From Eledone cirrhosa (Eukaryota), in NCBI GenBank assembly GCA_964016885.1, contig OZ024745.1, forward strand, positions 79,174,001-79,238,000: a DNA stretch of 64,000 nucleotides, written 5' to 3'. Shown here one piece after another: positions 13,601 through 61,639 of this stretch. Position 1 is the stretch's first letter. The number at the start of each line of letters is the position of its first letter. The notes under the pieces were generated by a model, which saw only the letters and a program-made list of their open reading frames with translations, did no database searches and had not been told where the DNA came from. The translations under genes and the position numbers were made by a program.

Positions 13601-16600
13601 GTTTAAATTGTAGTTCAGTTCTAATAATTTCATTGACTCTTTCTATATCATATGGTCTGTTAAAGTGGAGCTTATTTGACCTGATCAACATTATAACAGA
13701 ACACTGGGTTGTATGAATATAACAAGACACTCGGTTGTATGTACAATGTTTATTTAACAAGGTTGAGTTATGTAGAGCAGAATAGTTGACATGACAAGAG
13801 AGATGAAAGGATGAATTAAAGTTAGTTGTTTACCGTTTTGACTGGTCAGGAAGCGAGAGAGTTTACCCTTGGCGGAACTCGCCTGGCCGAAGGGCCAGGC
13901 AAGTTAAAAGAGAGGGAGTTAGCTTTCGGCTCTCTCCTTTATACTTCCCTCGGGCGGAAGTCCCTAAGAAGGTTCTGCCACCTCAACAGGAAGTAACTTC
14001 AGCTACTTCCTGTCTAGAGAGCGCCACTGGCGATGTGATCGCCACAACAAGGGAGGCAACTCTTGCTACATTATCTCCCACCAGATTTTTAAAACATAAA
14101 AATCAAATGAACCATGTATGAAGTAAGATGGCTAACATGTAACACCAAAGTCCAGGCATGAAAATTACAAAAAAATAATGTTTGCAATAAAAGGAAAACA
14201 GCAAAATATAAGCATGCAAAAATTAATGATAGATATCAAGGTAGCCAACCGCTCTTGGCCAGAGAACGACTGGACATCTATCTATCCATCACACAAAGAT
14301 ACAATGTAATCAATCTAAAAGAAGAGGTCAAAGGAGCAAAGAAACGTGCTCGAACATAGTTATTAAAAAAAAGGTTCAAATGTTCAAAATACAGTTCACA
14401 GGTGACAGCAGGAAAGAAAGTGTGTCCTCAAGAGAATATATGCAGGTGGTTTCTAGACTGTGGTACAACGTAAAATTGGGATTTTCTCACAGGAAGAGTG
14501 CTGCAAAAATAAATTCTGTTTTGTTCTGCTGGTTTTGGTTGTTGATAAAGCAAAGATGAAGCTGTGTTGTTGTTGTTGATGTTGTCTCGCAGAGTGAGCC
14601 TATTTGATGTTGTTTCCATTCACAGTAAAAAGTTTCCCAGAAAAAATGAGTTGCGCAAAGTGCTAGAAATAACAGCCAAAGTTGATGGTCGATGTTGAGA
14701 ACGCGTTGACCTGGTAGGGTAAAGAGGCCAGCGACCAAAGAAATAAGCATTCTGAATAAATGCGCAGTTTTCAACGGCAAATTTACATGGTAAATTTTTA
14801 AACTGGCAAATAGGAGAATATAGCTTAAGGCTGGAGAATCCTTGGCAAGAAACATTATCTATGGTGTGTGTTATCTCAGTGAGTCGAGATGTGTGCTCCC
14901 ACACGTGCCGAAACAAGGTTAAAGTCAAGTTGAATAAAAAATATTTCTATTGCGCGAGAAAATGGCGCAAAAATGAAAGGGCAACAGGTTGTTGGCAGCC
15001 ATTTTGAAAAATTTGTGTGTGAACGTGATAATATGATGAAAAAGAAGGAAAGGCTTTGTATATGGCGAGAGTTCAATTTTTTTTGGAAAGTGATGGGATA
15101 TATCGAGTGAGTGAAACACATTTAAACGATGTAAACACGTTAGGTGAAGAACAACATTTTTTCTTGTTTGTTTGCTGCTGAGAAAACGATTACTTCTATT
15201 TTTCGTTGTAGAAAAAATCCATGTGGAATGTTGTTAGAGGAATTTTTTCTTTTGAAGTACTGCTAATTAATTTTCTTTTTTTTTTTATATTCACACAACA
15301 CCAGCTCCTATTATTTTTTTTTTTCGGGGTCACCAATTATAATAGGGTTGTATGAATATAACAAGACACTCGGTTGTATGTACAATGTTTATTTAACAAG
15401 GTTGAGTTATGTAGAGCAGAATAGTTGACATGCCAAGAGAGATGAAAGGATGGATTAAAGTTAGTTGTTTACCGTTTTGACTGGTCAGGAAGCGAGAGAG
15501 TTTACTCTCGGCAGAACTCGCCTGGCCGAAGGGCCAGGCAGGTTAAAAGTGAGGGAGTTAGCTTTCGGCTCTCTCCTTTATAGTTCCCTCGGGCGGAAGT
15601 CCCTAAGAAGGTTCTGCCACCTCAACAGGAAGTAACTCCAGCTACTTCCTGTCTAGAAAGCGCCACCGTTGATGTGATCGCCACAACAAGGGAGGCAACT
15701 CTTGCTACATTAACAGGAATAGCTAACTCAGACGGAGAAAAATATAGAACTGAACTAGGCTTGAAAGCATTGTCTGAGCAACTAATCTGGAAGAATAAAT
15801 AGAATGTGAAAGAGTAGTCACTCATTGTGTAAGGTTTATGTTAACATATTAATGGTGGAGAGCATTAAAAATCTAAAAGAAATATATATATGTGGTGAAA
15901 TAAATAAAACGATATTTGTCCACACTCTCGTTACACCCTGTTCACATGGGAGGTTGGTTTTCTCTGGCATCACATTTTCCAATCATCTCATAATGGGGAT
16001 GGTAGTGTAGAGACTGAGAAATATATCCACATGTAGCCCACTTGCTCATTATCTTCCTCCTTCCCTTCCTTTTGAGTCTCCTGTCCCCCTTTACCTCTCT
16101 CCTTTTTTATCTGAATTACTCTCATTCACTATACTTCACTGCCCACATAACTGGGGTGAGCTTAGGATCTGTCAGATCCCATTTACTCTCATATTCACTA
16201 CAAGATGTTGCTCACATAAAGAGAGGTGCTCATACACTCACTCCCATACCCACTGCATTGTTGCCCATATTGCTGGTTCAGTGGTAGAATGCATTAGTCC
16301 TGTATATATATACCCAACCATCACTCCTCCTTAACACCACTTTCAGCAATTTCCCTACCCAACACTTGCTCTTGCTCTTTTTCTCCCCCCCCCTTCTTTC
16401 AGTTGTTTCCTCACAGTACTGCATTCATCATATTTCCTTACCCCCTCTCTCTCTATCTACCTCCCTCCCTACATCCTAAGCGGAGGACACAAAGATTGAA
16501 AAGATTCAGTATAATAATAACTATTGTTACATCTTTTGAATGATCAAATTTGATTGTTCAAAAAATGGAACTATAGCTATTACAATCACAAATGTTGTTT

Positions 16601-19600
16601 TTTCTTTTTCACATTTTGTAGCTTCAAGTCGATGTACATTCTCAAAAAAAATATAATCCTGTTGCTAACAGTGCTTTGTGTATAGAAATTATCCGAAATA
16701 TACGGCGATCCCTGAGCCAACAGGCTGATGTGCGATTCTTGATATATTCAGTAAGTTAAAATGTATTTCTTCTAAATAAATATGGATTGTAAGTTTACAA
16801 TAAACCAGCTCTACAGCTTAACATCTAGGTTTGGTTCCTCTATCATAGTTATTTCCTTTATTCCATAAAATTTCATGGAAAATGTATGATTATAACAAAG
16901 TCAGAAAACAGCACAGTTCCCATGACTTTTGGAAACATTTTTTCACGCTCAGAGTTGCTGAAGCATGGAACAAACTACCTGCATCAGTTGTTAGCTGTCG
17001 AGACTCTGCATCCTTTAAAATCTCCATGCGTCCCGAGATTCGCCAACACTACACCTAATGTTCCCCCTCCACACATACACACATGTATATCATGACTGAT
17101 ACACTATTCACTTCCCTGACATTTGTATATTATTCTATGTACTATACATGCACCTTTGACGAGTTGTAGTGCACCTGAGCACTTTACACAATAATTTCAT
17201 TATTATTATTATTTTATAACTTCCATTCTTCCAAACTCCTAAACTCAACAGAATCAGTCACTTCTTGATGGATACAATTTGGTTACAAATTGTTAAGGAA
17301 TTAACTTTATATAAAAGGTGTAGTGAATTTGTGGAAGCTCGAAGCGGCTAGGTTTGATAAAATAGTCATCAGTAATGTACTGGTATCAGTTTAGTTGACA
17401 CAACTGTTTGCATATTTGTGACTTTATGCTAACATAAGAAACCATATTAAATACAATATCTTGCTGTATCTTTTAAATTCAACTTCTGCCAAAGCTGTCA
17501 TTGCCTTTCATCGTTCTAGAGTTGAAAAAGCAAGTACCAGTCAAATACTAGGGGTCAGTTCGATTGACTATACCTCGTTTTTGTGAACTTTGCATTTGAA
17601 ATTCAAATTTCATGAAAGTCAACTTTGGTTTTTCTCCTTTTTGGCTTGATAAAATAAGTACCAGTTAAATACTTGAATCAATAAAATCAATATTCGACCA
17701 ATTCTTTACCATATTTTTAATGAAATGATTTTCAAATAATTTTGTAAATAATCAACAATTTGAAGGGATTTAGTAAAATAGGATGTTTAGCTTAATAATA
17801 TGATTCTGTGCTAAGAGAGGGGCTGAGCTGTCAACTGATCACCATTTAGTTATCTGCAACTTGAGACTACCTAAAGCCAAAGAAGCCCACAAAACTGGCA
17901 GGTACAGGATAAAGTAGGAAGCATTGGTGTATAAGAAAGTCAGGACCAAGTATGCAGATATTATTACATCCAAATTCAGAGAACTCCCTGAGCAAACTGA
18001 GGACTTTGAGACAGAGTGGAGATTGTTCAGTTCAGCAATTTCTACTTCAGTTGTTATGCTACATTTTTCATCTTTAACCCTTTATCATTTAAACCAGCAG
18101 TATCTGGCCAGAATTCTCTCACCTCTTTCTTTTCAAACCAGCTGTAACCGCCCGTTCATACTTATGTTAAGGTATTATTCTCAACATGAATAATATCAAA
18201 ATCTCATTGACTCAATATTATGTGAGGTAATGGCTTTACCATGAAAATATAATAGTAGATATAATATAAATACTAAAGGGTTAAATCGGCTGTATCAGCC
18301 GGAATTCTCTCACCTCTTTCTGTTCAAACTGGCTGTAACTGGCCACTCATACTGATGTTAAGGTATTGTTCTCAAAATAAATAATATCAAAATCTCATAG
18401 ATTCGATATTAAGTGGGGTAAAGCGTTTACCATGAAAATATAATAGTTAATATAGAGTAATGTAAATGCTAAAGAGTTAATATTTGTTAGATCCTTGTGT
18501 GCTTTTCTTTAACTGCTGTTTGACATTGAAAGTGAAAGGTGTAAACTAATTTCAAGTAGCCTATGTGTTCATATGATTTTCAAAAATCATTCCCATTTAT
18601 TATATTAAAAAAAATTTTTCTTTCTTTTTTTCTTTTAGGGGTTATGCAGCACCCTTTCCTACAATTCCAAACTGCAGAAACCCATTTTGAATCTTTTACA
18701 TTACCAAGTACTTTCATTTCTATTTTTCTCTGTCTGTGTGTGTGCATGTGTGTGCATGTATGTATATATATATATATATATATATACCTGGCATTCATTG
18801 ACTTGGAGAAAGTCTTTGACAGAGTACCTTCCTCCATAATCTGGTGGTCTCTTATAAAACTAGGAATAGATGAGTGGCTTGTGAGGGTTGTACAAACCAT
18901 GTACAAAGGTGCATGGGGAATAGCGATGCTCAGTATGCAAAAAAGTATCTGGTGAAAATTCTAACTAGTGTAAAAATATAAACTACGGGTACTAAATGGA
19001 TGTAATGAGATCTTAGTGGTTGCCAACTTCTGCTACCTAAGAGACTTAATTAGCAGTAAGGCTGGATGTTCTGAAAGTATAAAAGTAAGAATTGTTTGGA
19101 AAATTTTCAGGGAATTACTACTTCTGCTGATTACACAAGATTTTCCCTTTATGGGGAAAGGCAGATTGCATGATTCTTGTGTAAGAATTGTGGTACTGCA
19201 TGAAAGTGAGACTTGGGCCTTGAATAGAAGTGATCTGTGATGATTGGAGAGAAATAAGATGAGCTTGCTCTAATGGATGTGTAATAGCAGCGAGCATGAA
19301 CAATGAAGCATTAACAAACTAAGAGAAAAGCTTAGCATAAGAGGGATTAAATTCTGTGTTCAAGAAAGATGGTGCTGGTGTGAACATATGATGTGTATGG
19401 AGGGTGACAACTGCATAAAGAAGTGCAGAAAACTCAAAGTTAATTGAAATTGTGGAAGAGGCAGACCAAGAAAAACCTAGTATGATGTGATAAAGCCTGA
19501 CCTCACAAAGCTGATCCTTATATAGGAAATGACACAGAATCAAGTTGACTAGTGATATGTCATACTATAATATATAATATACTCACTTTCTCACACAAGC

Positions 19601-22600
19601 AGGATGCAACGAGGAGAGAGAGGATGACAGTAAAAAAGTAGAGAGATATAATGACATTTAGATCTCCCTTCCCCTGCCAATATGGTTCTTCCATTTCCTC
19701 TGTCCTCACTATCTAACCTCCCTCTCCCATCTTAGGCTTTCTCCCACTCACATCCCTGAATTGCCATTCCCCTGTCCAACCATGCCAGCATGGAAACACA
19801 GACACCCACCCACAGTATACTGCCAGATGTATAGAAAAAAACAAAATGTAGTGAGTTTGTCACTTGTGAAATCGTACATTTAGAATGTTACAACAATCTT
19901 CATTCTTGGTGGATGAATGAGCTTAGCAACAACTTTTGAGACTGCAATCCTGAAATTGTTTGTGGTAGCATGTATAAAAAGTGTGACAAGTTCGGCTGCA
20001 TGTCGTTCATACAAAAGGACAGGAGCAATTAAGTGGATTCCCATGTGTATCCTGGTTTTTAGAATAGGTGCACAATATCTCCATGTGTTGTATGAGTTGA
20101 CTAAAAGGAATTGTATCAGGAAAGGCATATGGTTGACAAACAGTGTCTCAAAACATCCCATCCAACCCTTGCCAGCATGGAAAATGGGACATAAAAATGA
20201 TGATGACAATGACATCACTGACAATTGGGTTGCAGACAACTACATAGCTAAGAATTTGGTAGGTTGTATTATATCAATGGCACTACGATGATCTCTACGT
20301 CCAACAAATAACTCAGTCCACTTAGCTGTAAATTGATGCTTAATGAATATAAGCAACATGCTGCTGTAAGTAGTAGATTCTATGTAAAACCAATGAATAC
20401 TTTATCACAGCCTGTAGTACTGAGTTTAACTTCTCATGTAAGCCTGGCGACAGTAATGAGAAAGAGAAATAGTGTTAGTATTTATCTTCAAAGCAGTTTT
20501 CCAATAGTCTTGAGTCATGTTGCCATTGCCTCTTTGCCATATTTCTGATTACAAGCTATGTATCATGTGGCTGTTGTTCTCTCATCATATATATTAAACA
20601 ATGGTTAGTGTCTGGCAATCAAATGGAAACAATGTAATGTTTGAAAGGACTTTTCAGTATGGCCTAATATGTAGCAACCTCTCTAGTGCTAGTGCCACGA
20701 CATGATGCTCCCAGTACACACTGCAATGTGTTAGTGTTGGTATCATGATAAAATGCACCCAGTCCACTCTGTAAAATGGTAGTACTGTGTCACAAAAGAC
20801 ACACCTAGTGCACCCTGTAAGGATGTTGGCATTAGGAAGGGCATCCCTCCATGGAAACCATACCAAATATAGAATGTAATGAGCAAGATTGGTCACACCA
20901 ACCCATATGGTCTCAAGCTGTGACAACCCATCCAACCCATGCCAGAGTAGAATGTGGATGTAAAAATGATGATTATGATGATGACATCAACCACCAGGTG
21001 TGTGTTTATGTGTGTTATTACTATATAACTGTTTTTTGTTAAATCTCCAGATTAAGAAATACTTTGAACCAGTTGAAGATGTTAATCCACCCCTTCGTTT
21101 AGAGACTTGCCTGCTCACCCTTGGATCACAAATCTGCCTTGGGGAACCACTGGTAAGTTCATTCTATACTGAAATTAGGTTTCTTTTTCTTTTACTCATT
21201 TTTTTCAAAATTTCTAGAACATTCCTTCTCTTGTATTTTGTTCAATGAAGATTATTTTCTTCAGTGACAACTGGCAAAATCTTATCATACTCTCAGCAGT
21301 CAACTATTTCATTATTGCCTTTGTTTCTGAAAAACAAATCATTATTAACTCTTAATAAAACACCAGTAATGCACTGGGGTCGATTTAATCAACTTTCCCC
21401 TCCCCTTCAAATTGCTGGCTTTGTGCCTGAAGTAGAAACAATTATTAACTCTTAACATCTTTTATTGCTTCAAACTGCATTAGCAAGACATTCTTAAAAA
21501 CTATAAAACAGCACAATAAGCATGCATGGGAATTGAATAAGAGGTGTGGGTTAGAATCCAATTTTTTTCTATTATGGGGGTTCATATGCCCTAATATTAG
21601 ACTATTTTCTATAGTCAATTTACAGTGAAAGCTTCTAATTCTATTTACTATATATATATATATATATATTTATTAAAATAACAGATTAAAGTTTAAGCAA
21701 AGAATGGCTGCTTTCACCCTTAACGGGATCTTCTGAAACTAACAAAGTCAATCTGTGAACGCAGAAGTGAATATTTCAAAAAACGTTGCAACCGGAGGAA
21801 GACAGGAAGACGATACTTTGGTTCGTGGAAACGTTCCCTGGCAAAGAACGGGAAAAAACGAATATAAACGTCATTATTTAGAGCGGTGAAAAACAATTAC
21901 ACGCAAAGACAAAACCACATTTATGGTATAAAAGAAGTCGTAGACTAATATTCTATTAGGTGGTTCATAGAGACGTTCTCTGGCAATGAACAGAAAAAAT
22001 GAAGATAATACGTCATATATGGAGCGTGGAGAACAATTGCACACAAAGACAAAACCAAGTAAATGGTATAGCAGAAGTCATAGACTAAAATTCTAACTAG
22101 GAAACCGAATGATTCTCGGCTTCAGAGTTAAGAATAAAGTAAATAAAATACAGAGGTAATTGAAATTAAATAAATACATACACGCATCCATATACGTACA
22201 TACACAAGCATACGCGAAAAACTCGCCATAGGTATACAAGTACACGCACATATAAATAGGTGTGTGTGTGCGCGCGTGTATACAAATAATTAAATAAATG
22301 TATATAAATAAATAAATACGTATGTAACAAGCGCACACACATACCTACATGTAAATACACATATGTTCAGAGACGTACGTCAACCAAAACACGAAGTACA
22401 CATATACACACCCTACATACGTACGAACCCGCATACTCACACAGACGCAAAACTCACGTATACACATAACCAAAAGCATATGTACCAGAATATATAATAT
22501 ATACGCCATAACATATACAATCAAATATACGTATGAGAAAGTATACATACCTTCACAAAACATACAGGTAATATATACTTACCTATACAATAAGTAATGG

Positions 22601-25600
22601 TATAAACATAACATATACTTAGCTACCACATCAAGACGTAAAATATCCGCGTATAGATCGTACTATCCGTTAGGGTACAACGTGGGCTGTAATACAGGAA
22701 AGTTTTGTGCAATTTATGTTTACAAGCCGAAATTGCCTCAGATTTTTTGTTTAAGATGTGGTCTGTGGCGTAGAGTATTTCCAGGGCCTCAGCGGCGCAG
22801 AGGGCACATGGTTTTTTATTTCCGTTATACGATCTAGCCCTAGGATCTCCCAGTGTAACTTATATTGGGTGTGGTTGTATTTTAGACTCCAGATATAAGC
22901 TGAAAGTGACGTCATATTCCTTCTTAGAGAGTAACGAAAAGAATGGGTATGCATGTAAAGACGCTGCTTGAATCTATTGGCGGTTAACCCTACGTAGGCC
23001 TTACGGGACGTGGGTGTTTCAACCTTACATTTGTAGACAATGTTACTAGAGAGGCATTTCCCGGATTCCTACAATTACAGTTAGTACTAACTACAGGGTT
23101 GCACGTGTTCCTACGGCTAGGTAGTTTAGCTAAATTTGAAGCTGTGATGTTATGTGCAAGGTTAGGAGTCGTAGAGTAAGAAATTTTAATAGTATTTCTA
23201 TTAAAAATTTTACTATATTTATGTGTATGGGAAAATGCTTCGTAATAAGGGATAGAAAGATCTTAGCTAATGGTGTGGCCACTTCCATATTATATGGTGG
23301 GTTATACCATATAATGCGACGGGATCTATTTCTTCTAGGTCTATTCTCGTACTCTGTATATGCTACCTTATCGACAAATCCACTCCGAGCAAGAGCTTCA
23401 TTGTAATATGTGGAATGGTCGTTGAAAATATGCTCGTTAGTAGATAGACGGAAAAGCCTCAAAGAAACGTTTCTTACCAGGTTCTTGGTTATGCTGGCTG
23501 GATGGTTAGAATGCTTTAATATTTGCTCTACGGTTCTTATATATTTGATATATATTTATATATATTTGATATATATTTATCCTTATCGAGCCCTCTTTGA
23601 ATTTTAGTCTTCAAATTTATTATTATTACTATATATATATATATATACATACACACACACATATTATCAGCAGCATCACCATTTAACGTCCATTTTTCCA
23701 CACTAGCATGAGTTATTTATATATATATATACACTTTAACCACTCATATTGCAAACCAAGTACCGTATATACTCGCCTATATGTCGCACTTTTTTAACGA
23801 TAAATAAGTATAAATTTTTGGGGTGCGACCAACTTCGTAGCGTTTACATTTATTTCTATCTGACTGAACCATCCGTCATTAAAATCCATAGAAATGCATA
23901 CCCGGTATTTAAAATGTGATTTCATTGTCTTAGCGTTGCTATAAACATGTATTGTGACGTATTTACTTTAACAGGAAACAGATTATTACATGTGGCATTT
24001 CTTTTTAAAATTAGCAAGTGAGAAAAGTTGATAGTTGAAATTTTTTTTAGAATTCTCTGAGAAATATGAATTCCGGTAAGAGAAAAAGTTATCAAACAGT
24101 TTTCAAGTTAAAGGTGGTTGGTTATGCAGAAGAATTTGGAGTATCAGAAAAGGTGGTGAGAGGTTGGAGGAAACAAAAAGAGAAGCTGGGAGAAATGCCT
24201 AAATCAAAGAGAGCAGCAAGGTTTGGAAGATCTTGAAAAAGAGCTAAATGATTGGGTTTTAGATATCAGGGAAAATGGACACATTGTTACAAGACTTTCT
24301 ATAAGAACGAAAGCCCATCAACTTGCACCAAAGTACCACTTATCCCAATTTAAATCGTCAGCAGGGTGGTGCACCAGGTTTATGAATAGGTTTGGACTGA
24401 CTCTTCGTCAAAAGACACATATTGCACAAAAGCTGCCAAAAGATATTGATGAGAAAGTACACAATTTTGTAAAATTTGTGTTAAAGGAAAGAAAAATATT
24501 TGATTTTGCCATGGAGAATATAGCCGACATGGAGGAACACCCATGTACTTTGACATGCCAGGCAACACAACTGTGGATAGTGTAGGTAACAAAGCTGTTA
24601 CAGTCAAAACCACAGGTCATGAAAAACAACATTTTACTGTTGTTCTAGCATGCCAGGCTGATGGAAAAAAACTTTGTCCTATGGTTAGTTTCAAAAGGAA
24701 AATTATGCCGAAAGACAATTTTCCAAGCGATGTGATTGTGAAGGTACATCTGAAGGGCTGGATAGACGAGAACTTAACAAAGTTATGGCTTGATGAAGTG
24801 TGAATGAAAAGGCCAGGGGCATTACTGAAGCCACAAAGTTTGCTAGTTTGGGATATGTTTCGATCTCACTGCTGTGAGTCTGTAAAGGCTAAGCTGAAGG
24901 ATTGTAAAACAAGTCAAGCAGTGATTCCTGGTGGTTGCACCTCAGTCTTACAACCCCTTGATGTGGCAGTAAATAAGCCCTTCAAGACTTATATCCATAA
25001 ACTCTGGACTTATTGGATGATATCAGGTGAAAAAGAAATTACCAAAGGTGGATCATTGAAAAGACCTGGCTTGAGATTAGTGGTGGAGTGGGTGAAGGAG
25101 GCTTGGGAAAGTATTCCTGCAGAGCTAATAATGAAGGCTTTCAAAAAATGTGGCATATCAAATGCGATGGACAGGACTGAAGATGATGTGTTATATGAGG
25201 ATTTAGTTGGTGAAAAGACATAAAATGCAGAGAGTGATGAGGGAGATGATATTGAAGAATGTGAAGATGAATTGAATGACTATTATAACAAATGCACAGT
25301 TACAGATGAAGAAATGAAAAAACTATTAATTAACAGGTGTAAAAGTAATAACTTTATGGATAAACACAAAAATTTAAACTTTATCTGCCTTACCTGTTAG
25401 ATTTGTTGCAAAAAAAATCAATAATGACCTAGATGTTGACTTCCATCAATTCTAGCAGTTTTCCAAACAGGTGAATTAATTAAAAATGCAGATATAATCA
25501 GTACAAGGTTTTAGTCTTTCTCTACATTCCAGGCAAATATTTTCATTGAAAAAAATGTATAAAACCTTTTCACCAGTCAAAATAATATTTGCAATGTACT

Positions 25601-43067: not shown

Positions 43068-43101
<34 letters not shown>

Positions 43102-46100
43102 CTTCCCGAAATACGCCAAAACTACATCTGATGTACCCCTTCCATACACATGCACACATGTGTATATCATGACTCATGCACTGTCCATTTTCCTGACGTT
43201 TGTACATTACCCTATGTACTATACATACACTTTTTGATGAGTTGTAGTGCACCTGAGCACTGTACACAATATTTCATTATTATTATTATTATATAGTTCA
43301 AGGAAACAACAAAACAGAGATACAAAAAGTCTTATTAATTTCATGCTTCATATGGAAAAGGGGAAAGAAAGTTTGACTTGTCGGACTTTAGCCTTTCTTC
43401 AGGAGTTCAAAAAATAGAGATAGGATCACAAAGGATAGACACAGAAAATAAAAGGTAGTATATATATTAATCAAAAGTGAAATGAAACTCATTCTTTGGC
43501 AGGTAGTTCAGTAGATGCACCCATAAAATTGTTTCCATGAATGCTTATACTGGTGTGAACATTCAATGAGAATATCTGATGAGTACTGCATGAAAAAATT
43601 GTATGAGAGAGAGTAGCTGAGGCACGGGAGATGTGGCAAAGTAGTATTAAAGTAATGTCCCATCTTGGGATACTGAGCCTCATAGATGAAATGATGGAAG
43701 ATTAAGTTGATTGGTGATATGCTGTACAATAGTTGTCTATTCCATTCCAGTTTGCAACAGATATTAAAATATTGATGACAATATTTTTCTCCATTCTAAC
43801 ACCATGTTATTTCTCTTCTTCCTGCTTCACCATTTCTCTGCAGTAAAAGACAGCAATTCCACACAGGCTTCAGAGTCCCAAATGTCTAGTAAACAGAGCA
43901 TTTTGGAAAAACATACAAAACTCATTCAGGTTTGTAGCCAGTTTATTTGTTTTTCCTATCTTTCTTCTTTTCAGTTTATCTTTGTTTTGTTTCTTTTTGT
44001 CCTGGAAATTCAAGCAAATACAAGTTAGAGAAGACTTTTCGCCGTGCAAAATACATTTGCACTGACATAGGACTTATTAAATAACGTATACAAGGTAACC
44101 AGAAATAACTCCTAAATGTGATAACAGATCCCAGCCTGGATGGTAGAAGCTGACTAAATTAAATTGGTTTGATAATCAGTACATTATTTCTGAGTGTATT
44201 ATTCTTCACTGAAGGCAAAACATAAGATCAAGATATGTGTATTGTTTTTAACTGCAAACTTGCCCAGCTTGTACCAGCTCAGTAAATAAATTGTATGTAA
44301 AATTATTGAATGTATCGTGGTTCAGTGTTCGCCAACCTTTCAGACCTCACAGACCACTAAATTCATAATTTTAAATCCCGCAGACCACTAATATGAATTA
44401 ATGGTCAATGGTTGAAACAATACTGAAGCATACGTGTGTCATATTGTCAATAGATGATACATATGTGTAAAATTCTTTCATGGATGTTAGTTCTTTACTA
44501 AGGAGAAACATTTTTTGTGGAGTTATAAAGTATATTTTAACCAAATGTTATTTTTGTTAATAAAACATAAAAATTGTAAATAATGTCCACATTTTTCTGC
44601 GAACCACCAACATTTTCTTTTGGACCACCAGTTAGTGACCACTGTTGTGGTTGATGGTAATAATATTTACATAGTTTATTGCTGTTGTATCATCAAGTGA
44701 TTGTCTCAGACATTTGTTTGGATATCCATTTGATTTCTATATGATAGAAAGGAAGTATGGGGCTATAATTGTTTGAGCATCACACAAAATATCTACCAGT
44801 TTTTATTTGCAGCTCTTTAAATTCAGAATTCAAACCTTGCTGTGTTTAAATTTACCTTTCATCCTTCCAGAGCTAATTTAATCAACTGGTATTGGTTTCT
44901 CTCAAGCTCTTCAAGCAAGAGACCAGCTGAGAGTTCCAAACAAATCTTCTTAGTGCTGCGTTTTGTTTTCAGGGCAGATATGGATGTAAAACTTCAACCA
45001 TTTCAGAATTGCTGTGTGGAGCAGTGACTCCACATATTACTAGCTTTGAAAGACAAAATGATTGGACAATAGCTGACACATACACACACAACTATATTTA
45101 ACAGGATATTTGATACATCTGTCATTATTTTCAATGACAAATTCAAAGTATAATTGAAAGATGGTGTTAGCCATATCAGAGAGTAAACTTATATGTCACC
45201 TTAGTGGAGGCTACACCTCACCAATGACTTGGTGAGGTGTAGCCTTCACTAAGGTGGGTTGTTCATGACATCCTACCAGTGTCCAACAGCAAGTGTACAA
45301 GATTTGGAAACATGTTGAGAGGATCCTTCAAATTTCTGTGATGTGTGCAATGTGATGTTACATGGTAGTAAGACATAGGCTGTGAAGACTTGAGAGAAGT
45401 GAAGTGAGCATGCTTTGATGGATATGCAAAGTTAATGTGCGTGAACGACAAAACATGGATACTGAGAGAGAAACTAAATATAAGAGGAATCAGATGTCGT
45501 ATGCAAGAGAGAAGACTGTGCTAGTATTGACATATAATGTGCATGGATGATGATCATTAAGAAATCCCAGCAGAAAAAAACTGCAGTAGAGGAAGACCTG
45601 GAGAGCTGAAGCTCACAAAGGAGATGGCGATGGACTGCAACAGGTATAAGGATGCTGTCCTGGAAAAGAAATGTCCAACCCATGTGAGAATGGAAAAGCA
45701 GGCGTGATGATGTTGCTGCTCTCCATTTTATAAATAATATACTTATTACATTTAACTGTCTAGATCATCATCACAATAAAATGTGTAGCTCTGCTCTTTT
45801 GCTATCATACAACAACAGTCTTACGGGCAACATTTCCCAGATGATTTGGTGCCTATTTACTTTTGCTGAATAGAATAAAGTATTTTGCACAGAAAAATAA
45901 GGAAATCTTGGCAGCTTGGTCTTGCCAAGGAGATAACAACCCCTCTAGTGTTGGTACCACAATAAAATGCATCTAGTACAATGTAAAGTGGTTGATATTA
46001 GGAAGATAATCCAGCTGTTAAATCCATGCCAAAAAGGGAACATATAAGTGTGACCTGTCCATAAGGGCCATGACTCGGCATAAGAATTGACTTGAACTGT

Positions 46101-49100
46101 CCAACCAGTGCTATCATGGAAAGCAGATGTAAAATGATAGTGATAATGATGATAACTCATGAGCATGTAGTTCATTTACTTTATTCACTCAGCTATATTG
46201 CCTCTACAATGTCTTAAGGGACCTTATCTAAAAAAGGAAAAAAATAGAAAGGCCTTTATAAATCTATTAAAATTGCTCTCTATAACTTTCTTATTATTTC
46301 TATAGAGACTGGCTGTTAATATTCTCACGTCTGACAAGGAAACCAAGAACATTGTTGAACTGAACATTTTGCTGGAAATTCTTGGCCTCTTATGTGAGCA
46401 CCTAAATCCAGGACAACTTTATGATGAAATATTACATTGGATTGATGATGTTGCTAAATCAAATGGAATTGGTAAGAAAATAATGTTGTTGTTCTTTAAT
46501 TCCAAATCAACTCTGGTTGAGCAGACCTATGTATGATCAAAGGCCTTCCAAACATGACCATCTTGTCTTTTTGTTTTTAAACAAATCCAATGTCTTCTTT
46601 TTTTAAAGATTGTGGGATTTGAAGCAGATTTGACTGCCATTTCTTTCGTTTTGAATGACCAGGTAGAGGCTCTCTCTTTGTCACAAATTGTTTTCCTAAA
46701 TTATTTATATTAGGGTTCACTTATAATTTTCAAAAAGCAGTATATAATGATTTCTGAGTCAGAACTGTGTCTTATATATAACTATGATTATCAGTTGCCT
46801 CAACTTGATTAAGCCAAAGCCAACCACAAACCCAAGCAAACGTAAACTATACACTTACAATCAACCCCAAACATTACATCCAGTCCACTCAAGGAATAGC
46901 TAAACCATGCATGTCCTTCTAACTCTGTCCCCACATCCTGGTAACAAACCACCAACCTGTACTAATTACTGGTGTTGAGATGACAGACATAATCAGGCAA
47001 CAGTGATATATATTTGTAAGGTAAATGATAGTATAGGTAATTAATCTTACGAATAATTATTTTATTGTTTCTACTTATTGATGACTAAAAAGTAAAGTTG
47101 GATTCAATAAGATTAAGATTTTTTAAAACTCCTAGCTGTGAGGTATCCCTATAACATATCTAATTTAGCTCTTTACCGTCTACACTATTTTCACTTTTGA
47201 CTCTATGTGTGTTTATGTGTAGGGTTATTTCTATTTATTTTCTCTAGATGCAGATACAAATGTAGCTTCTAAAGTTCTTGGTTTGTTGATGAAGATGTCA
47301 AAGAATGTGCGAAACCCAGTTGGGATGTTAAAGAAAATATCAAGAGACCTCCATAGTAAGCTTGGAGACATTGACAAGGTAAACAAAACTTATATGATTT
47401 ATATACAAATTGTAAAGTGGTTGTGTTAGTACCACAATAAAATGTACCCAACCCATAATGTAAAGTACTTGTGCTGGTGCCATAATAAAATGCACCCAGT
47501 CTACCCTGTCAGATAGTAGTGGTGGTGCTGTGAGAAAATAAACCTGGTACACACCATGAAGTGGGTAGCATTAGGAAAAGCATCCAGCTATAGAAAGCAT
47601 CCCAAAATGGGATATATGAGCAAGACAGACATCTAACTTGTCTGTCTAGCCACAAAACATGACAACCCGTCTAACTCATGCAAGCATGGAAAATTGATGT
47701 AAAACAGTGATGATGATAGCAGTGCACTTGATCTATATGAATAATATATGCAGATAACTGTAGCAAGAGTTGCCTCCCTTGTCATGATAATCTCATCACC
47801 ACTCTCTAGACAGGAAGTAGCTGGAGTTGCTTCCCTTTGGGATTGACAGACTCCCTGTTGGTCACTTCCGGTCACCTCCTATAAAAGGAACAGGTCACCA
47901 CGATATCTCTCTCTTGCCTCCTGATTTCTGAAGTGGTAACACCTGCGACCTTAGCTTGTGATGATTCCTTCTTGATAATCCTTTGCTACCAAGAACAATG
48001 CAACTTGCAGCCTGAGAGCCTAAGATGTCAATATCAGCTAGAAAAGATCTCTTCTTTTCTCTACCAACTTCAGCCTCGAGTTATGACCATCGGGTAACAA
48101 ATCCTTAATATTTAATACCTTTGACTTCCATGAAGTAAAAACATTATTATAACACACACACCGGTATTTACTGTCTTTTTTATGTTATATGTACACCGAT
48201 ACTCATCTCCTAAAGTGGTGACCCCCGACCTGATTTTAAAAAAAAAAAAAAAAGAATGGGAAATGGTATACGGTGTATATAATATAAAAAATAAAAAAAG
48301 AAAGACAAGAAAAAGAGAAAAATATAACAATTTAATACAAAACGAACACCGACAATTATTGACACACAGACAAACAACAATTGTATAAATGTTTTTGCCT
48401 TTTTTTTCTCTCCTTTTCTGCCCTTCTCTTCTCTGGCTAAACATTTTTGAGGATGACAAGATGGAGTCTCTCTTCTCCATCAATAGTGTTTTTGGCGCGA
48501 AATGGTCCGCCATGTTGGATTTTTTTTTTTTTAGGTTCCTTGCCCTTACCTTAGTATAACAGCATTCACTTAATCGCTTGTTTACATATTGTCCTGGATG
48601 CATTATTTTTCCGGTCCAGTGGTCTGACGGAAAAATTTTGTTTTCCTTTTCTGTTACGTTAGAGACATTTTTCCAAACGGTAGATTGTCTGCGCTATACC
48701 AATGGCTTCCCACTCTGTTCTGCCAACGTACACGGGTGACGTGAGGCTATGGTTCTCACAGTTAGAAGCATTCTTCAGGGCGAACAGAGTTGACGAGGAA
48801 CTACAACATTCTGTGGTCCTTAGCACAATTCCACCGGCAATTCTCCCAGCGGTTAAGGACCTCGTGTTAGAGGCAACCACAGACTCGTCGTACACGTCTC
48901 TGAAGGCTGAAATACTCAGCCGGACAGAACAGTCTTCAGGAAAAAGATTTAGGGCTCTGGTCCAGCTGGAGCATATAGGGGATGGCACCCCATCGAACCT
49001 CCTTAGGCGAATGAAGGACCTAACGGAGGGGTCTGCAGCGGAAACTGTCCTGCTGAAGCAGTTCTTCTCGCGCCTGCCGACCAACGTACAGGCAATTTTG

Positions 49101-52100
49101 GCCCCCATGAGGGATACAAGCACAGTGGATCAGCTTGCTGCTTCTGCGGACAAAGTTTTCGAGGTGACGAATGCCGGAGGCAGCGACCCCCTTGCCGCTG
49201 TTTACCACCCAGCTCGGGCCACACACGGCCATGTGATCTATGCGGCAGCGCCAACAGACAGCTCGACCATTATAGCGATGCAAAGGTCCATTCAGGAGCT
49301 CACCATAGAGCTCCACAAGATGAAGGCCTTGTGTGGTGGCTGTTCGCGCCCCCGCAGTCGCGGGAGATCGCAAAGTTTTAGACAGCATTCTAAGTCACCA
49401 GCTTCATCTTTATGCTGGTACCACGAGCGATTTGCTGAGAACGCGAATCACTGCGTGCAACCTTGCTCCTGTCATAAGGCGGGAGACGCCTAAGAGGTCC
49501 TCTGATGGGGACAGTTGACCTCAACATAAAGCCACCAAACCGCCATTTCTTCATTAAGGACCTAATGTCCGGAAGAGGTTTCCTCATGGATACAGGAGCC
49601 TCCTGTAGTATTTGGCCAGTCCATTGCCTGAAAGATACCCCCATAGAGTCATCTGTTACGCTGCAGGCAGTTAACCACTCGTCTATAAAGACGTACGGAC
49701 AAATCTCGCTCCCTCTTAAATTCCTAAATCTTCGAAGGGATTTTAAGTGGATTTTTACGGTTGCCGATTTGCCATATCCCATCTTAGGAGCGGATTTCCT
49801 CCACAACTTCTCTTTAACTGTGGGCGTCCGTGGCCAACGCCTGGTGGATAACATCACCGGCTTTTCAATTGATGGCCAGGAAGCCAATGCTCCGATAGTC
49901 AGCCCCATGTTCTTTGTCTCTGCCGCTGGAGACGCCTACCATTCGTTGCTGGGTTCTTTCCCGGAGCTCACGGATGGAAATTTTCGAGTCACTGACCCAA
50001 CACACTCGACCGAACATTTCGTTTCCACCACTGGTGCCCCAGTGTTTTCACGTCCACGCCGCTTACCGACGGAAAAATTAAAGGCAGCACGGTCCGAGTT
50101 CGACCATATGCTGCAGCTGGGCATTATTCGCCCATCTACGAGTCCTTGGGCTTCACCGTTACACATGGTGCCCAAGACTTCCGGCGACTGGAGACCCACT
50201 GGGGATTATAGGAGGTTAAATGCCATGACCGTTCCGGATAGGTATCCCATTCCTCATCCCACGATTTCACATCTTCACTGCAGGGGTGTAAGATTTTTTC
50301 TAAGTTAGATTTAGTGCGAGCCTACCACCAAATTTCGGTTAGGAAGGAGGATATTCCGAAAACGGCGATTACAACCCCTTTCGGATCCTTCAAATTTTTA
50401 ACCATGCCTTTCGGACTCAGGAACGCCGCTAGCACTTTTCAGCGGTTCATAGACGAGGTCACGCGTGGTCTGGACTTCGTTTATGCTTACATAGACGATA
50501 TTCTCGTCGCTAGTTCCTCTCCGGAAGAGTATATGCGCCACATGCTTCTCTTACTTCGGCGACTTCAGGATTACCGCGTTCGCGTGAATCCTGCAAAGTG
50601 TGTTTTTGGTTCCACTTCCCTACATTTTTTAGGCCACCTCATCGACGCCGAAGGTATTAGGCCGCTCCCTCAGCGAGTTCAAGCCATACAGGAGTTACCT
50701 CCACCTACTACACTTCACCAGTTGCGTCACTTCTTAGGCCTAATCAATTTCTATAGGCGTTTCATTCCTCATTGTGTTAATTGGCTATCTTCCCTTACTG
50801 ACATTTAAAAAAATCGTTGTAAGAAGAATGAAGACATTTCCTTGATACAAGGACAGCTTCAAGACTTCCAGTCTGCCAAGACAGCACTCGCTAGTTCTTC
50901 TTTGCTAGCCCACCCGGTACCAGAGGCCAAGCTTTCGCTTTGTGTTGATGCATCTGATACCACTGTGGGAGCAGTTTTACAGCAGTCTTACGCTGAAAAC
51001 CAACAACCTTTGGCATTTTTCTCGAGGAAGTTGAAACCAGCAGAAACGCGTTATAGCACGTTTGGGCGGGAATTATTAGCCATATATCTGTCGGTGAAAC
51101 ATTTCTCTCATATTCTTGAGGGGAGAAATTTTACGGTTTTTACCGACCACAAACCGTTGACCTTCGCTTTGAGGGCTAAAGCCGACAGATATTCGCCCAG
51201 AGAGACAAGGCACCTGGACTACATTTCACAATTTACAAACGATATCCAGCACATTGCCGGCTTGCACAACATAGTTGCAGATGCATTGTCACGTTTGCCA
51301 ATCAGCTCCATCTCGTCATCCCAGGAGATCGACTTAGGTCGTTTAGCTGCAGACCAACCTGCACTCCAATCGTTGGACACTCTTTCTACTGAATTTGCGA
51401 CTTGCATTTTCAAATATCTGCCTTTGTCCACCACCGACAGGCAGATTCTATGTGATGTATCTACTGATGCACCACGACCACTTGTTCCTGAGACTCACCG
51501 TCGAATTGTGTTCCTGGCTTTGCACAACATTTCTCATCCAGGATCTACTGCCACAGTTAAACTCATAACAGCCAGATTCTTCTGGCCAAATATGAGGCGC
51601 GACATTGCTGCTTGGTGCCGTTCCTGTATCGCTTGCCAGAAATCGAAGATCCATAGACACATCCGGACTCCACTTGGTACTTTCAGTACTCCAGATGCTC
51701 GGTTCCAACACATCCACATTGACATCGTTGGACCTTGGCCTTTCAGCAGTGGATATTCTTACATATTGACGTGTGTCGATCGTTTTTCAAGGTGGCCTGA
51801 AGCCATCCCTTTACAAGACATGACTGCTGAGACTGTAGCACGTGCCCTGGTATCAGGGTGGATTACCCGCTTTGGGGTACCAACTACACTCACCACAGAT
51901 CGTGGTAGACAATTCGAGTCCCATCTCTTCTCTGAGCTCACAAAAATAATTGGAGCTCAACGGATTCGGACCACAGCCTATCATCCTGCTTCAAATGGAA
52001 TGGTGGAACGATTCCACCGCCAATTAAAGGCCGCTCTTCGCGCCTATCCAGACTCTCAACGTTGGAGCGAGTACCTTCCTATTGTGTTATTAGGAATTCG

Positions 52101-55100
52101 GTCATCAATAAAGGAGGACCTTGGGTTCTCCCCGGCCGAATTAATTTACGGTGCTCCTCTAGCGTTGCCTGGGCAAATGCTTGCCCCGGTTGATCTTGCT
52201 TTCCAAGATCCGCTTTCCTACGTATCCCGTCTGCGTTCTTATTTACAGGACCTGCCGCCGATGGATACGAGGAAGCAAACTGTAAAACCTGCGGTCCCGA
52301 GGAACATTGCCTCGTGGACCCATGTGTTCGTAAGGAACGATGCTGTGAGACCACCCCTCACACAACCATAGTCTGGACCCTACCGTGTGTTAGCACGCAT
52401 TGACAAACATTTCACTGTAGACGTTAAGGGGTCCAGAGAGACAATTTCGGTGGATAGACTGAAAAGGGCACACAATGACGCTCATACACCCGAGCCACAA
52501 ATACCCCAATCTTTCTCTCTTGTGCATACACCTGCTCCTTCTGCCCCACCTTCACCTACATACAAGACTATGACCCGTTCCGGTCGGAGAGTCCACTGGC
52601 CCAAAAAGTTCTGCCAAACTATTTTTATGTGAGCTGGCCATTGGAGCCTTATATTTTTTTTTCTTGCTATTCTTGTTATTTATTGATTTATTGTATTGCA
52701 ATGTACCTCTCATTACCATTTCACTGGATGTATATATATGTTTTTCGTTTCCTTTACAACAAACATTTTAAGCTAATATAAATATACATTTTAAGCTAAA
52801 TTTGCCGTGGAAAACAGCGCATTTATTAAGAATGCTTATTTCTCTGGTCGCTGGCCTCTTGACCCTTCCAGGTCAACGCATTCACAACATCAACAACAAC
52901 ACAGCTTCATCAACAACTAAAACCAGCAGAACAAGCCAGACAATTTATTTCTGCAGCACTCTGCCTGTGAGAAATTCCCTTCGGAAGTTGGAAATTTCAT
53001 GTTATACCACAGACCAGAAACCACCTGCATTCATTCTCTGGAACACATTCTTTACTGCTGTCATGTGATTGCACACATGTGAACTGTATTTTAGATATTT
53101 GAACTTTTGACCTCTTCTCGTACTTTTATTACTTTGTACCATAATTTTCATGCCTCTTACAAGCTCGCCATCTTACTCCATGCATGCTTCTTTCGATTTT
53201 TATATTTTAAAAATCTGGCGGGGGATAATGTAGCAAGAGTTGCCTCCCTTGTCATGACAATCTCATCACCGCTCTCTAGACAGGAAGTAGCTGGAGTTGC
53301 TTCCCTTTGGGATTGACAGACTCCCTGTTGGTCACTTCTGGTCACCTCTTATAAAAGGAACAGGTCACCACGATATCTCTCTCTTGCCTCCTGATTTCTG
53401 AAGTGGTAACACCTGCGACCTTAGCTTGTGATGATTCCTTCTTGATAATCCTTCGCTACCAAGAACAATGCAACTTGCAGCCTGAGAGCCTAAGATGTCA
53501 ATATCAGCTAGAAAAGATCTCTTCTTTTCTCTACCAACTTCAGCCTCGAGTTATGACCATCGGGTAACAAATCCTTAATATTTAATACCTTTGACTTCCA
53601 TGAAGTAAAAACATTATTATAACACACACACCGGTATTTACTGTCTTTTTTATGTTATGTGTACACCGATACTAATCTCCTAAATAACTCTCAATGATTT
53701 GTTTTCTGAAAGGAATATGAAGTTGAAGAACACAGCTATTACAGTGCCATTACTACTCAGACCTCTGGTTCAGTATTATGTCTGTTGTTAGTTTATGTCT
53801 CAAATGGTCTTGATGAAATAAACTGGGTCCTCCAGAAGATGAAAATGGAAATGTATGCCAACAAGGATGCTACTACAGGTGAGTCTGCTCAGTACTTTAT
53901 TTGTATGTGGGGGTGGAGGCATTTGGCCTAATGGACCAAGTTATGAAAGTAATGGGAAGAATTCTTGCACAGCTCATTAGGGAAAGAGTCAAATTATATG
54001 AGATGCAGTTCAGTTTTATGCCTGAGAAAAGCACTACAGATTCCCTCTTCTCAGACAACTACAAGACAAGTTCCTAGCTAAGAATAAGCTTCTGTGTTTA
54101 GCTTTTGTTGATATAAAAGACCTTTGACAGAGTACCTTGCTCTGTTATCTGGTGGTCCTTAAGAAAATTAAGTGTAGAAGAATGGCTTGTGAGAACAGTG
54201 CAAGCTATGTACAGAGGAGCTGTCATTAAACATCCATTTTTCCACGCTTGCATGGATTAGACAGGTTGTCAAGTTATGAGACAAGCTGGTCATACGGATC
54301 TGTATTTTGTCTTCATTTCTATGACTAGATGCTGTTCCTAACACTAACCATGTTACTGTGTGGATTGGGTACTTTTTATTGTGGAACTGAAATGACCACC
54401 CTAGCAGGGTGGACTGGGTATTTTTTGCTGTGTCACCAGCACAACAACCTTACTGGATGGACAGGGTGCTGCCTGTGTCACCAGCATGATCACCTTACAG
54501 TGTGGGCTGAGTGTTTTTTTGTTGTAATACCAACACAACTTTACAGTGTAAGAGTGATGTGAACAGTAGTGGGTGTTGGAGCATGGGAGATGTATGGAAG
54601 AGGGTATAGTGGTTAAGAGGTGTCTACTAGATGTTGTGACTCCTACTGACGACTATACAGTGTGGGCTGGGTGCTTTTTGTTGTGAAACTTACACAACCG
54701 CTTTACAATGTGGGCTGAGTGTTTCTTTGTTGTGAAACCTACACGACCAATATACAATGTGGGCTGGGAGCTTTTTGTCCTGATAAGATGTAGTTTTTCA
54801 GTGATGAAATCCTGAGAAAAATAAAAGACATTATTAAAGAATTATTTTTAGTGGTATGAAATGCTATATGTAGTTAGAATCAATCCTGGTTCAGATTTAA
54901 ATATACCAAGTGTTTTGGAATAGTAAGCACGCATGTTTATTTATTTATCATGAATATATACTGTTAAATCCTTGCAAAACACACCATACCTGCGCAGACA
55001 CCATAATCTAATTATAATTAAACTGACTATTGAAGATAATGTCTCGCTTTTAATCTTGTTGAAGCTTATTTGAAAAAGACTTTTAGGGAAACCTATAATT

Positions 55101-59847: not shown

Positions 59848-59878
<31 letters not shown>

Positions 59879-61538: not shown

Positions 61539-61639
61539 GTCAGTATAACTTATGTTCCTACATTTATATCATGAATAACCATATATGTTCCAAGTCTCGT
61601 CCAACATTTTCATTAGAATGAGTATGGACATATGTATGC

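What the first reader, a model, noticed from the sequence alone, without database searches (positions are those of the whole stretch)
13691..53683. Helper-parasite LTR system in one gene: two ~2 kb non-coding LTR elements plus a Gypsy element sharing the same cis-signals
Seen in sequence: elements at 13691-15709 and 32491-34617 (minus strand) and the Gypsy element at 47759-53683 (plus strand) all start TGTAGCAAGAGTTGCCTCCCTTG...CTAGACAGGAAGTAGCTGGAGTT. All use the PBS TGGTGACCCC and have TTTTAAAAATCT(G/A)G(C/T)GGG(A/G)G(A/G)TAA at the PPT. The three LTR bodies diverge beyond the first ~80 nt. The small elements have ~1.3-kb internals with no intact gag/pol and a PBS cut to 11 nt followed by an A-run. 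Established: tRNA-Trp priming plus a CHCC gag defines the CsRn1 lineage; TRIM/LARD-type elements replicate in trans. Inference: this is a non-autonomous family with at least two LTR subtypes, mobilised by this Gypsy lineage. I am not aware of a description in molluscs.
Basis: partly seen in the sequence, partly recalled or inferred. Interest (0 to 1): 0.72.

Follow-up and report, generated by a model that had tools for sequence, protein, structure and literature searches.

The report
Gene-less LTR family swapping with helper
The two 2-kb elements are copies of a gene-less jumping-gene family found at over a hundred places in this animal genome; it likely borrows the proteins of the neighbouring Gypsy family and has likely traded replication signals with it and with a second gene-less family, a kind of partnership already known from plants.

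Summary
Observation confirmed, with small corrections. The two small elements (family S) are dispersed and non-coding: 110 exact LTR-end/PBS signatures genome-wide; of 40 sampled, 25 resolved as two-LTR units (median 2.2 kb), 22 with exact 4-bp TSDs. The Gypsy (G) meets the CsRn1 sequence features, but this copy is broken. S and G share more than signals: S's interior is homologous to G's 3'UTR. Three coding G copies carry the whole S interior and an S-like U3, and a tree of the shared segment rejects G monophyly (p=0.001) while their integrases are 95-99% identical. This points to repeated exchange, likely in shared particles. Against a single helper: S is mostly older than sampled G (LTR pairs 97.1% vs 99.3%), its 12-nt PBS also occurs in a sister coding family, and some S copies use other PPT/U3 cassettes, one from a second gene-less family (N). 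All three elements lie in FANCI introns, likely by chance. Non-autonomous LTR elements are published in bivalves; modular swapping in plants. The scan noted the tRNA-copy accidents elsewhere in this genome, but not family S by sequence. New member of a known kind.

The parts
13692..15709 (-). Element A, non-coding LTR element of family S; no clean TSD
15338..15709 (-). A 5' LTR (372 nt, TGT...ATA; 7-nt deletion near its end)
15324..15335 (-). A PBS, 12 nt complementary to tRNA-Trp, then an A-run
14071..15323 (-). A interior: S leader plus about 1 kb homologous to the long 3'UTR of mosaic G copies; PPT at 14071-14090
13692..14070 (-). A 3' LTR (379 nt)
32491..34617 (-). Element B, family S; TSD ACTA at 32487-32490 and 34618-34621
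34204..34617 (-). B 5' LTR
34190..34201 (-). B PBS, 12 nt, tRNA-Trp
32893..34189 (-). B interior; from about nt 206 on it is 90.5% identical to the 3'UTR of coding copy L388; PPT at 32893-32912
32491..32892 (-). B 3' LTR
47759..53684 (+). Gypsy element G (CsRn1-type), broken copy; TSD TAAC at 47755-47758 and 53685-53688
47759..48214 (+). G 5' LTR (TGT...AAA)
48216..48234 (+). G PBS for tRNA-Trp, full length with one extra C and one substitution in this copy
48684..49493 (+). gag frame with CX2HX9CX3C (CHCC) at about 49413-49466; DUF7041 hit
49478..52632 (+). pol (PR, RT, RNase H, integrase) with a frame break near 50242-50308 and stops at 50806 and 52369
52634..53228 (+). G 3'UTR, blocks 73-94% identical to S interiors; PPT at 53209-53228
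53229..53684 (+). G 3' LTR
2290..61571 (+). Host FANCI gene, span of exons detected by Pfam; all three elements are intronic

Best explanation
Elements A and B are copies of a dispersed, gene-less LTR family (S) that is likely copied by the proteins of tRNA-Trp-primed CsRn1-type Gypsy elements, the G lineage among them, and has likely swapped sequence with them during reverse transcription. Shown: S has LTRs, a Trp PBS, a PPT and 4-bp TSDs but no gag-pol; S and G share the 3'UTR, PPT and U3 head; mosaics exist between S and G, S and N, N and G, and S and H. Inferred: S RNA is packaged with helper RNA, primed by tRNA-Trp, and integrated by the helper integrase; template switches in particles holding two different RNAs move the 3'UTR-PPT-U3 cassette between families, at least once from S into coding G. 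G is a likely helper, probably not the only or the first one.
For: Family: 110 exact signatures. Of 40 sampled, 30 had a second LTR and none of the 30 had coding sequence inside; 25 were fully resolved, 22 with exact TSDs. Shared junction: 178 exact places of a 34-nt PPT/U3 word; the first 30 are 19 S, 8 coding G, 1 G-LTR only and 2 G/S mosaics. L377, L378 and L388 have G coding sequence (94.6-96.1%), then the S interior and an S-like U3; L377 and L388 end in G-type R-U5, and L377's LTR pair is 99.2% with TSD GTTT. L377's UTR segment is 98.8% to S copy L030 and 94.1% to the best G copy of another subgroup; its U3 is 97.6% to S copy L226. In the UTR tree 24 coding rows fall in 4 places among 46 S rows; AU test p=0.00104; integrase ends are 95.1-99.2%. 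L193/L194 have integrase and U3 of a G subgroup but a UTR segment nearer S (94.6% vs 91.7%). L316 is an N interior between two N-U3/G-type R-U5 LTRs (99.1%, TSD CTTC), switching at the pyrimidine tract about 25-35 nt past G's TATA. Twenty places join the S-type LTR end to a full 18-nt tRNA copy; 8 continue to 32 nt with a mismatch at nt 19, consistent with real tRNA-Trp priming.
Against: S LTR pairs have median 97.1% (n=25) against 99.3% (n=13) for G, so most S insertions predate the sampled G burst; the G sample was biased to the window's pol, and one mosaic G (L388) is older (95.2% with gaps). No S copy with a G-type U5 end was found: the search gave 13 places, 11 coding and none an S interior under a G LTR. 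The S-to-G switch in L377/L388 lies at the shared TATA box, not at the expected R start. The AU test used a quick tree on 261 columns, left out L220, and was run after the tree had been seen. Direction of transfer is unresolved for most cases. L244 joins an S 5' half to sense RNase H-integrase of another family without matching LTRs, and L317 has a mosaic LTR at one end only, so DNA-level rearrangement also makes mosaics.
Confidence: 0.78

Rival explanations
1. S is an ordinary internal-deletion derivative of an older long-UTR G-like element, amplified by its own parent, and L377/L378/L388 are survivors of that parent.
For: S from about nt 206 on is colinear with the 3'UTR of L388 and L377 (84-90%); the first 55 nt of the S leader resemble G2 and G leaders at 78-84%; non-coding UTR may diverge faster than integrase.
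Against: S has its own R-U5 (ending ATA, not AAA), 2-nt spacer and 200-nt leader, absent from all G copies seen. None of 30 LTR-A hits had sense coding sequence beside it. The three long-UTR copies sit with two different S subgroups.
Confidence: 0.12
2. The mosaics come from DNA-level gene conversion or unequal recombination between genomic copies, so they do not show shared particles; the helper is some other Trp-primed family.
For: S and G share homologous tracts at both ends of the swapped block; L244 and L317 are asymmetric mosaics; S is mostly older than sampled G; at least four other Trp-primed coding families exist.
Against: N/G and S/H mosaics join families that show no extended homology in the comparisons made and carry matching LTR pairs with TSDs (L316 99.1%, L131 97.6%). 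S-type PPT plus U3 head was seen only in S and G among 30 places.
Confidence: 0.08
3. The small elements are heterogeneous one-off deletion products with no amplification of their own.
For: Lengths vary 1.8-2.9 kb and 15 of 40 sampled places were not resolved as complete two-LTR units.
Against: Shared leader, PBS and junction at 110 exact places, individual TSDs in 22 of 25, multi-copy subfamilies.
Confidence: 0.02

Closest known systems
CsRn1 clade of Ty3/Gypsy (CsRn1, PwRn1, AgCR; PMC2582038, passages and section 6 read)
   Same: tRNA-Trp PBS, 4-bp TSD, TGT...AAA or TGT...ATA termini, CX2HX9CX3C gag, PR-RT-RH-IN order. The clade is reported in 9 of 12 cephalopod species (PMC6238403, passages).
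   Different: The described members are coding. My search for CsRN1 with non-autonomous listed 8 papers; I read passages of one, which links no non-coding family to this clade.
TRIMs, including biv-TRIM and Helenus/Ajax (PMC6934838 abstract and passages; PMC10886601 parts 1-3 of 6)
   Same: Non-coding LTR-PBS-PPT-LTR units moved in trans, present in bivalve molluscs; animal Helenus also has 4-bp TSDs and Gypsy-type PBSs.
   Different: TRIMs are under 1000 bp with 100-250 bp repeats; S is about 2.2 kb with 340-450 bp LTRs. No partner was found for biv-TRIM; here a partner lineage and mosaics are seen.
Elongated non-coding LTR families of sugar beet (PMC13570524, passages) and Culex cqUNK elements (PMC3286476, passages); LARD size class
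   Same: Kilobase-size non-coding LTR elements; in beet, modular groups, chimeric elements and template switching between families.
   Different: Animal CsRn1 context; no tandem-repeat interior as in Culex; here coding copies carry non-autonomous sequence.
Wheat RLC_Angela and Wilma/Sabrina/WHAM systems (PMC9744471, passages)
   Same: Non-autonomous families that share motifs with a partner and can change partner, with LTR transfer by template switching or gene conversion proposed.
   Different: There the switch is inferred from LTR trees; here individual mosaic insertions with junctions are seen, including transfer into the coding partner.
VL30/MLV and ETn/MusD (recalled, not read here)
   Same: Non-coding RNAs packaged by a related coding element, with recombinants known for VL30.
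   Different: Retroviral systems; not compared by sequence.

Membership tests
CsRn1 clade (element G) | PBS for tRNA-Trp | tested here: met
   G copies carry the 18-nt PBS; tRNA-Trp(CCA) genes confirmed by ARAGORN
CsRn1 clade (element G) | Gag CX2HX9CX3C (CHCC) | tested here: met
   residue 244 of the gag frame
CsRn1 clade (element G) | 4-bp TSD and TGT...AAA/ATA termini | tested here: met
   11 of 13 resolved copies with exact 4-bp TSD; termini as in PMC2582038 section 6
CsRn1 clade (element G) | PR-RT-RH-IN order | tested here: met
   Pfam RVT_1, RT_RNaseH, Integrase_H2C2 and rve in order; DTG protease motif
CsRn1 clade (element G) | RT tree groups with CsRn1/Kabuki references | not tested
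   no reference sequences on hand
Non-autonomous LTR retrotransposon (family S) | Two LTRs, PBS, PPT, no gag-pol | tested here: met
Non-autonomous LTR retrotransposon (family S) | Many dispersed copies with own TSDs | tested here: met
   110 exact places; 22 of 25 exact TSDs
Non-autonomous LTR retrotransposon (family S) | Mobilisation in trans shown experimentally | not testable with these tools
   inferred from shared signals and mosaics only
TRIM | Total under 1000 bp, repeats 100-250 bp | tested here: not met
   median 2208 nt, LTRs 338-448 nt; definition from PMC6934838
LARD | Kilobase-size non-coding interior, over about 4 kb in the usual definition (recalled) | tested here: not met
   1.8-2.9 kb; works like one but falls between the TRIM and LARD sizes
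Helenus/Ajax (TRIMp3) | tRNA- or 5S-derived Pol III promoter in the LTR | not tested
   not searched; S LTRs have a TATA box at nt 128-133 and exceed the size limit
Catalogued Repbase/Dfam family | Match to an existing entry | not testable with these tools
   no repeat library available

The most novel reading that the evidence does not exclude
S is a shuttle rather than a passive parasite: an older gene-less lineage that rides several tRNA-Trp Gypsy families, exchanges whole 3'UTR-PPT-U3 cassettes with them and with a second gene-less family, and has supplied the promoter end and 3'UTR now used by the young coding family, so that a non-coding passenger steers the evolution of its helper.
Probability: 0.3. 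Interest if true: 0.62.

Novelty: new member of a known kind. Interest (0 to 1): 0.38.

Why it matters
Naming the helper of a non-autonomous LTR family usually rests on shared motifs alone. Here mosaic insertions record which RNAs likely shared a particle, and one case points from passenger to helper. That makes partner choice testable from an assembly in an animal lineage. Practically, protein-based annotation misses S and N, although S outnumbered coding G 19 to 8 in the first 30 places sharing the PPT/U3 word. As a kind of system it is known.

Tried and rejected
(1) Family H as helper: L131 holds H gag-protease between S LTRs, but of 20 full H regions none had an S-type LTR or 3'UTR of its own; L131 is a single chimera. 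(2) A coding donor for the type-2 or N cassettes: no sense pol within 1.5 kb upstream in 15 of 15 type-2 places or 30 of 56 N places examined. The G2 family has a similar PPT and head but no extended match. (3) An S copy with G U5: none among 13 places. (4) Simple restoration of the S PBS to 18 nt: 0 of 20 places. (5) One search used a pattern one base too long (1 match); redone. (6) ARAGORN found no tRNA in 12 of 12 loci; they are LTR elements with extended PBSs; tRNA genes came from two clusters. (7) Sequencing runs: no RNA holder listed; no reads laid. (8) U3 and R-U5 trees were not built, only identities. (9) Literature: 9 searches listed no description of this family or of cephalopod non-autonomous LTR elements; the library lacks most subscription papers, supplements were not opened, and Repbase/Dfam could not be checked. 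(10) Scan notes by sequence and by words returned nothing. (11) Twenty further PPT/U3 places were not examined, so the share of mosaics rests on a small sample.
Full report
Observation. The three elements are as described. A spans 13692-15709 and B 32491-34617 on the minus strand; G spans 47759-53684 on plus. LTR pairs are 96.4, 97.2 and 98.5% identical without gaps. B and G have 4-bp TSDs (ACTA, TAAC). A has none; a 3-nt slip at its left end could hide an ATGT duplication (inference). A and B align over 1494 columns at 78% and their LTRs are homologous throughout (72.5%). The S PBS is 12 nt against this genome's tRNA-Trp. FANCI exons flank all three elements.

G is CsRn1-type. It has CX2HX9CX3C in gag, RT, RNase H and integrase domains in Gypsy order, an 18-nt Trp PBS in most copies, TGT...AAA termini and 4-bp TSDs in 11 of 13 resolved copies of 22 examined. 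These are the features listed in PMC2582038 (passages; section 6). I built no RT tree with references. The window copy has a frame break and two stops and cannot itself act as helper. Its family is large and young: 1406 first-look candidates, the best 40 at 97-100%.

S is a real family. A's interior drew 1234 candidates; 40 were scored, and the copies behind the 30 loci are 86-92% identical to A apart from A itself. An exact 26-nt LTR-end/PBS word occurs 110 times (control 0). I fetched 40 of those places not seen before, in list order on contigs 1-2. Thirty had a second LTR and none of these had coding sequence inside. Twenty-five resolved fully: 1828-2938 nt, median 2208, LTR pairs 92.5-99.2% (median 97.1), exact TSD in 22, one mismatch in 2. 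The other 15 were truncated, interrupted or not resolved by the script; one of them, L244, runs into sense RNase H-integrase of another family without matching LTRs. Of 30 best hits to A's LTR none had sense coding sequence beside it; four lay antisense inside Gypsy genes.

The link to G is closer than shared motifs. A 34-nt PPT/U3 word occurs at 178 exact places. The first 30 are 19 S, 8 coding G, 1 G LTR without coding sequence and 2 mosaics. Twenty longer regions (nine of those 30 plus eleven new picks) gave three mosaics, L377, L378 and L388: G coding sequence at 94.6-96.1%, then about 1.1 kb of S interior and an S-like U3; L377 and L388 continue into G-type R-U5, while L378's LTR is cut short. 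In a tree of the shared 256-nt UTR segment (70 rows) the 24 coding rows fall in four places among S rows. Holding them together is rejected (p-AU 0.00104; quick tree, L220 left out, test run after seeing the tree). Integrase ends across the G subgroups are 95.1-99.2% identical, while the UTR segment is 84.9-94.1% between subgroups. L377 is 98.8% to S copy L030 in that segment, and L388 is 96.8% to window element B. L193/L194 have integrase and U3 of one G subgroup but a UTR segment nested in an S subgroup, the clearest S-to-G case. For the others the direction is open.

The system is wider than one pair. Of the 25 resolved S copies, 17 have the G-type head, 5 a second PPT with a shortened U3 (15 exact places) and 3 a U3 from another family. 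That family, N, is also gene-less: about 410-nt LTRs, 1.4-kb interior, 18-nt Trp PBS, 56 exact places, no sense pol upstream in 30 examined. S/N mosaics include L233, L237, L248, L321 and L133. L316 has an N interior between two identical N-U3/G-type R-U5 LTRs (99.1%, TSD CTTC) with the switch at a pyrimidine tract 25-35 nt past G's TATA, where the transcription start is expected. This is the predicted product of a first-strand jump between two RNAs. L131 holds gag-protease of a distant family H between S LTRs (97.6%). The 12-nt PBS with A-run is shared with coding elements: 11 of 13 places with a CTAAA-type U5 end have sense gag downstream, most in a sister family G2, and six match the first 42-55 nt of A's leader at 78-84%.

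Priming. Twenty places join the S-type LTR end word to a full 18-nt tRNA copy; one of them is another coding family and one showed no S match. None is a plain repair of the short PBS; most have an inversion, deletion or foreign sequence right after nt 18. Eight run to 32 nt of tRNA-Trp with a mismatch at nt 19, and a ninth has further changes. Nt 19 faces tRNA position 58, usually m1A (recalled). This supports reverse transcription primed by tRNA-Trp. The scan had noted such accidents in other elements of this genome (unreviewed AI notes, not independent support).

Mechanism. Shown: anatomy, dispersal, TSDs, shared cassette, mosaics. Inferred: transcription from the S LTR, packaging with helper RNA, Trp priming, integration by a CsRn1-type integrase, and exchange by template switching. 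Against G as sole helper: S is mostly older than sampled G (97.1 vs 99.3%; G sample biased to the window's pol), although some S copies reach 99.1-99.4% and L388 is older. No S interior under a G-type LTR was found. The L377/L388 switch is at the TATA box rather than at R. One-sided mosaics (L244, L317) show that DNA-level events also occur. I give about 0.78 to trans-mobilisation with G among the helpers and exchange during replication.

Comparison. S works like a TRIM or LARD but meets neither size definition. Non-autonomous LTR elements are published for bivalves (PMC6934838, abstract and passages; PMC10886601, parts 1-3 of 6), mosquitoes (PMC3286476, passages) and plants, where modular reshuffling (PMC13570524, passages) and partner switches (PMC9744471, passages) are described. 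CsRn1 elements are reported as common in cephalopods; that survey's de novo step excludes small deleted copies and the word non-autonomous does not occur in its main text (PMC6238403, passages). Nine searches listed no description of this family. Supplements were not read and repeat libraries were not available, so it may be catalogued. The host was not identified by any search.

Verdict. A real, probably undescribed family of a known kind, with unusually direct sequence evidence for its partners. Interest 0.38.

Noticed in passing
window 53685-53712: G ends 28 nt upstream of a likely splice acceptor (AG at 53711-53712) of a FANCI S4 exon, in sense orientation; an effect on splicing is possible but untested.
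   Followed up: no
L113, L114, L118-L122, L125, L126 (around 1500-1570): An S subfamily with a double PBS: a 32-nt tRNA-Trp copy with a mismatch at nt 19, a repeated LTR end, then the usual 12-nt PBS.
   Followed up: partly
L158-L186 at about 1505: Family H has an 11-nt PBS followed about 13 nt later by a second stretch resembling tRNA-Trp, possibly a split PBS.
   Followed up: no
L145-L156: All 12 loci checked from the tRNA 3'-end search are LTR-type junctions with PBSs extended to about 28-38 nt, not tRNA genes.
   Followed up: partly
L124, L127, L191, L304/L305: Fold-back products in which a PBS is followed by inverted LTR or inverted PBS sequence, or two PBSs face each other.
   Followed up: partly
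L142 (G000:C28 near 96.24 Mb): Three-LTR tandem of an internally deleted S copy, each unit with an 18-nt PBS.
   Followed up: partly
L386 and L226, about 200 nt after the PBS: Some longer S leaders hold a relic of PBS nt 8-18 followed by a T-run, perhaps an old junction with a full-PBS element.
   Followed up: no
G000:C4 353.39-353.49 Mb and 277.41-277.44 Mb (L187, L188): Tandem clusters of tRNA-Trp(CCA) genes, 7 confirmed by ARAGORN; over 35 motif matches in the larger cluster.
   Followed up: partly
L006, L016, L018 and others, 5' flanks: Many S, N and H insertions sit in (TA)n microsatellites; not counted against a background.
   Followed up: no
window 33458-33543: Element B has an internal tandem duplication of about 43 nt.
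   Followed up: no
window 6083-10049, 35126-36733, 24160-25223: Two broken non-LTR retroelements (endonuclease and RT hits) and a Tc5/pogo-like transposase relic in FANCI introns.
   Followed up: no
window 30342-30799, 55457-57408, 3588-3998 with 36624-37035: A 201-nt inverted repeat with a 56-nt loop, a 280-nt inverted repeat pair, and a 98-99% identical inverted pair 33 kb apart.
   Followed up: no
window 62811-63056: PHD-finger hit next to a weak RT hit, likely part of another non-LTR element.
   Followed up: no
L345 (G000:C5 near 83.93 Mb): A 1.7-kb mosaic with an unknown U3, G-like U5, S-type PBS and leader, and an integrase-end fragment; LTR pair 96.4%.
   Followed up: partly
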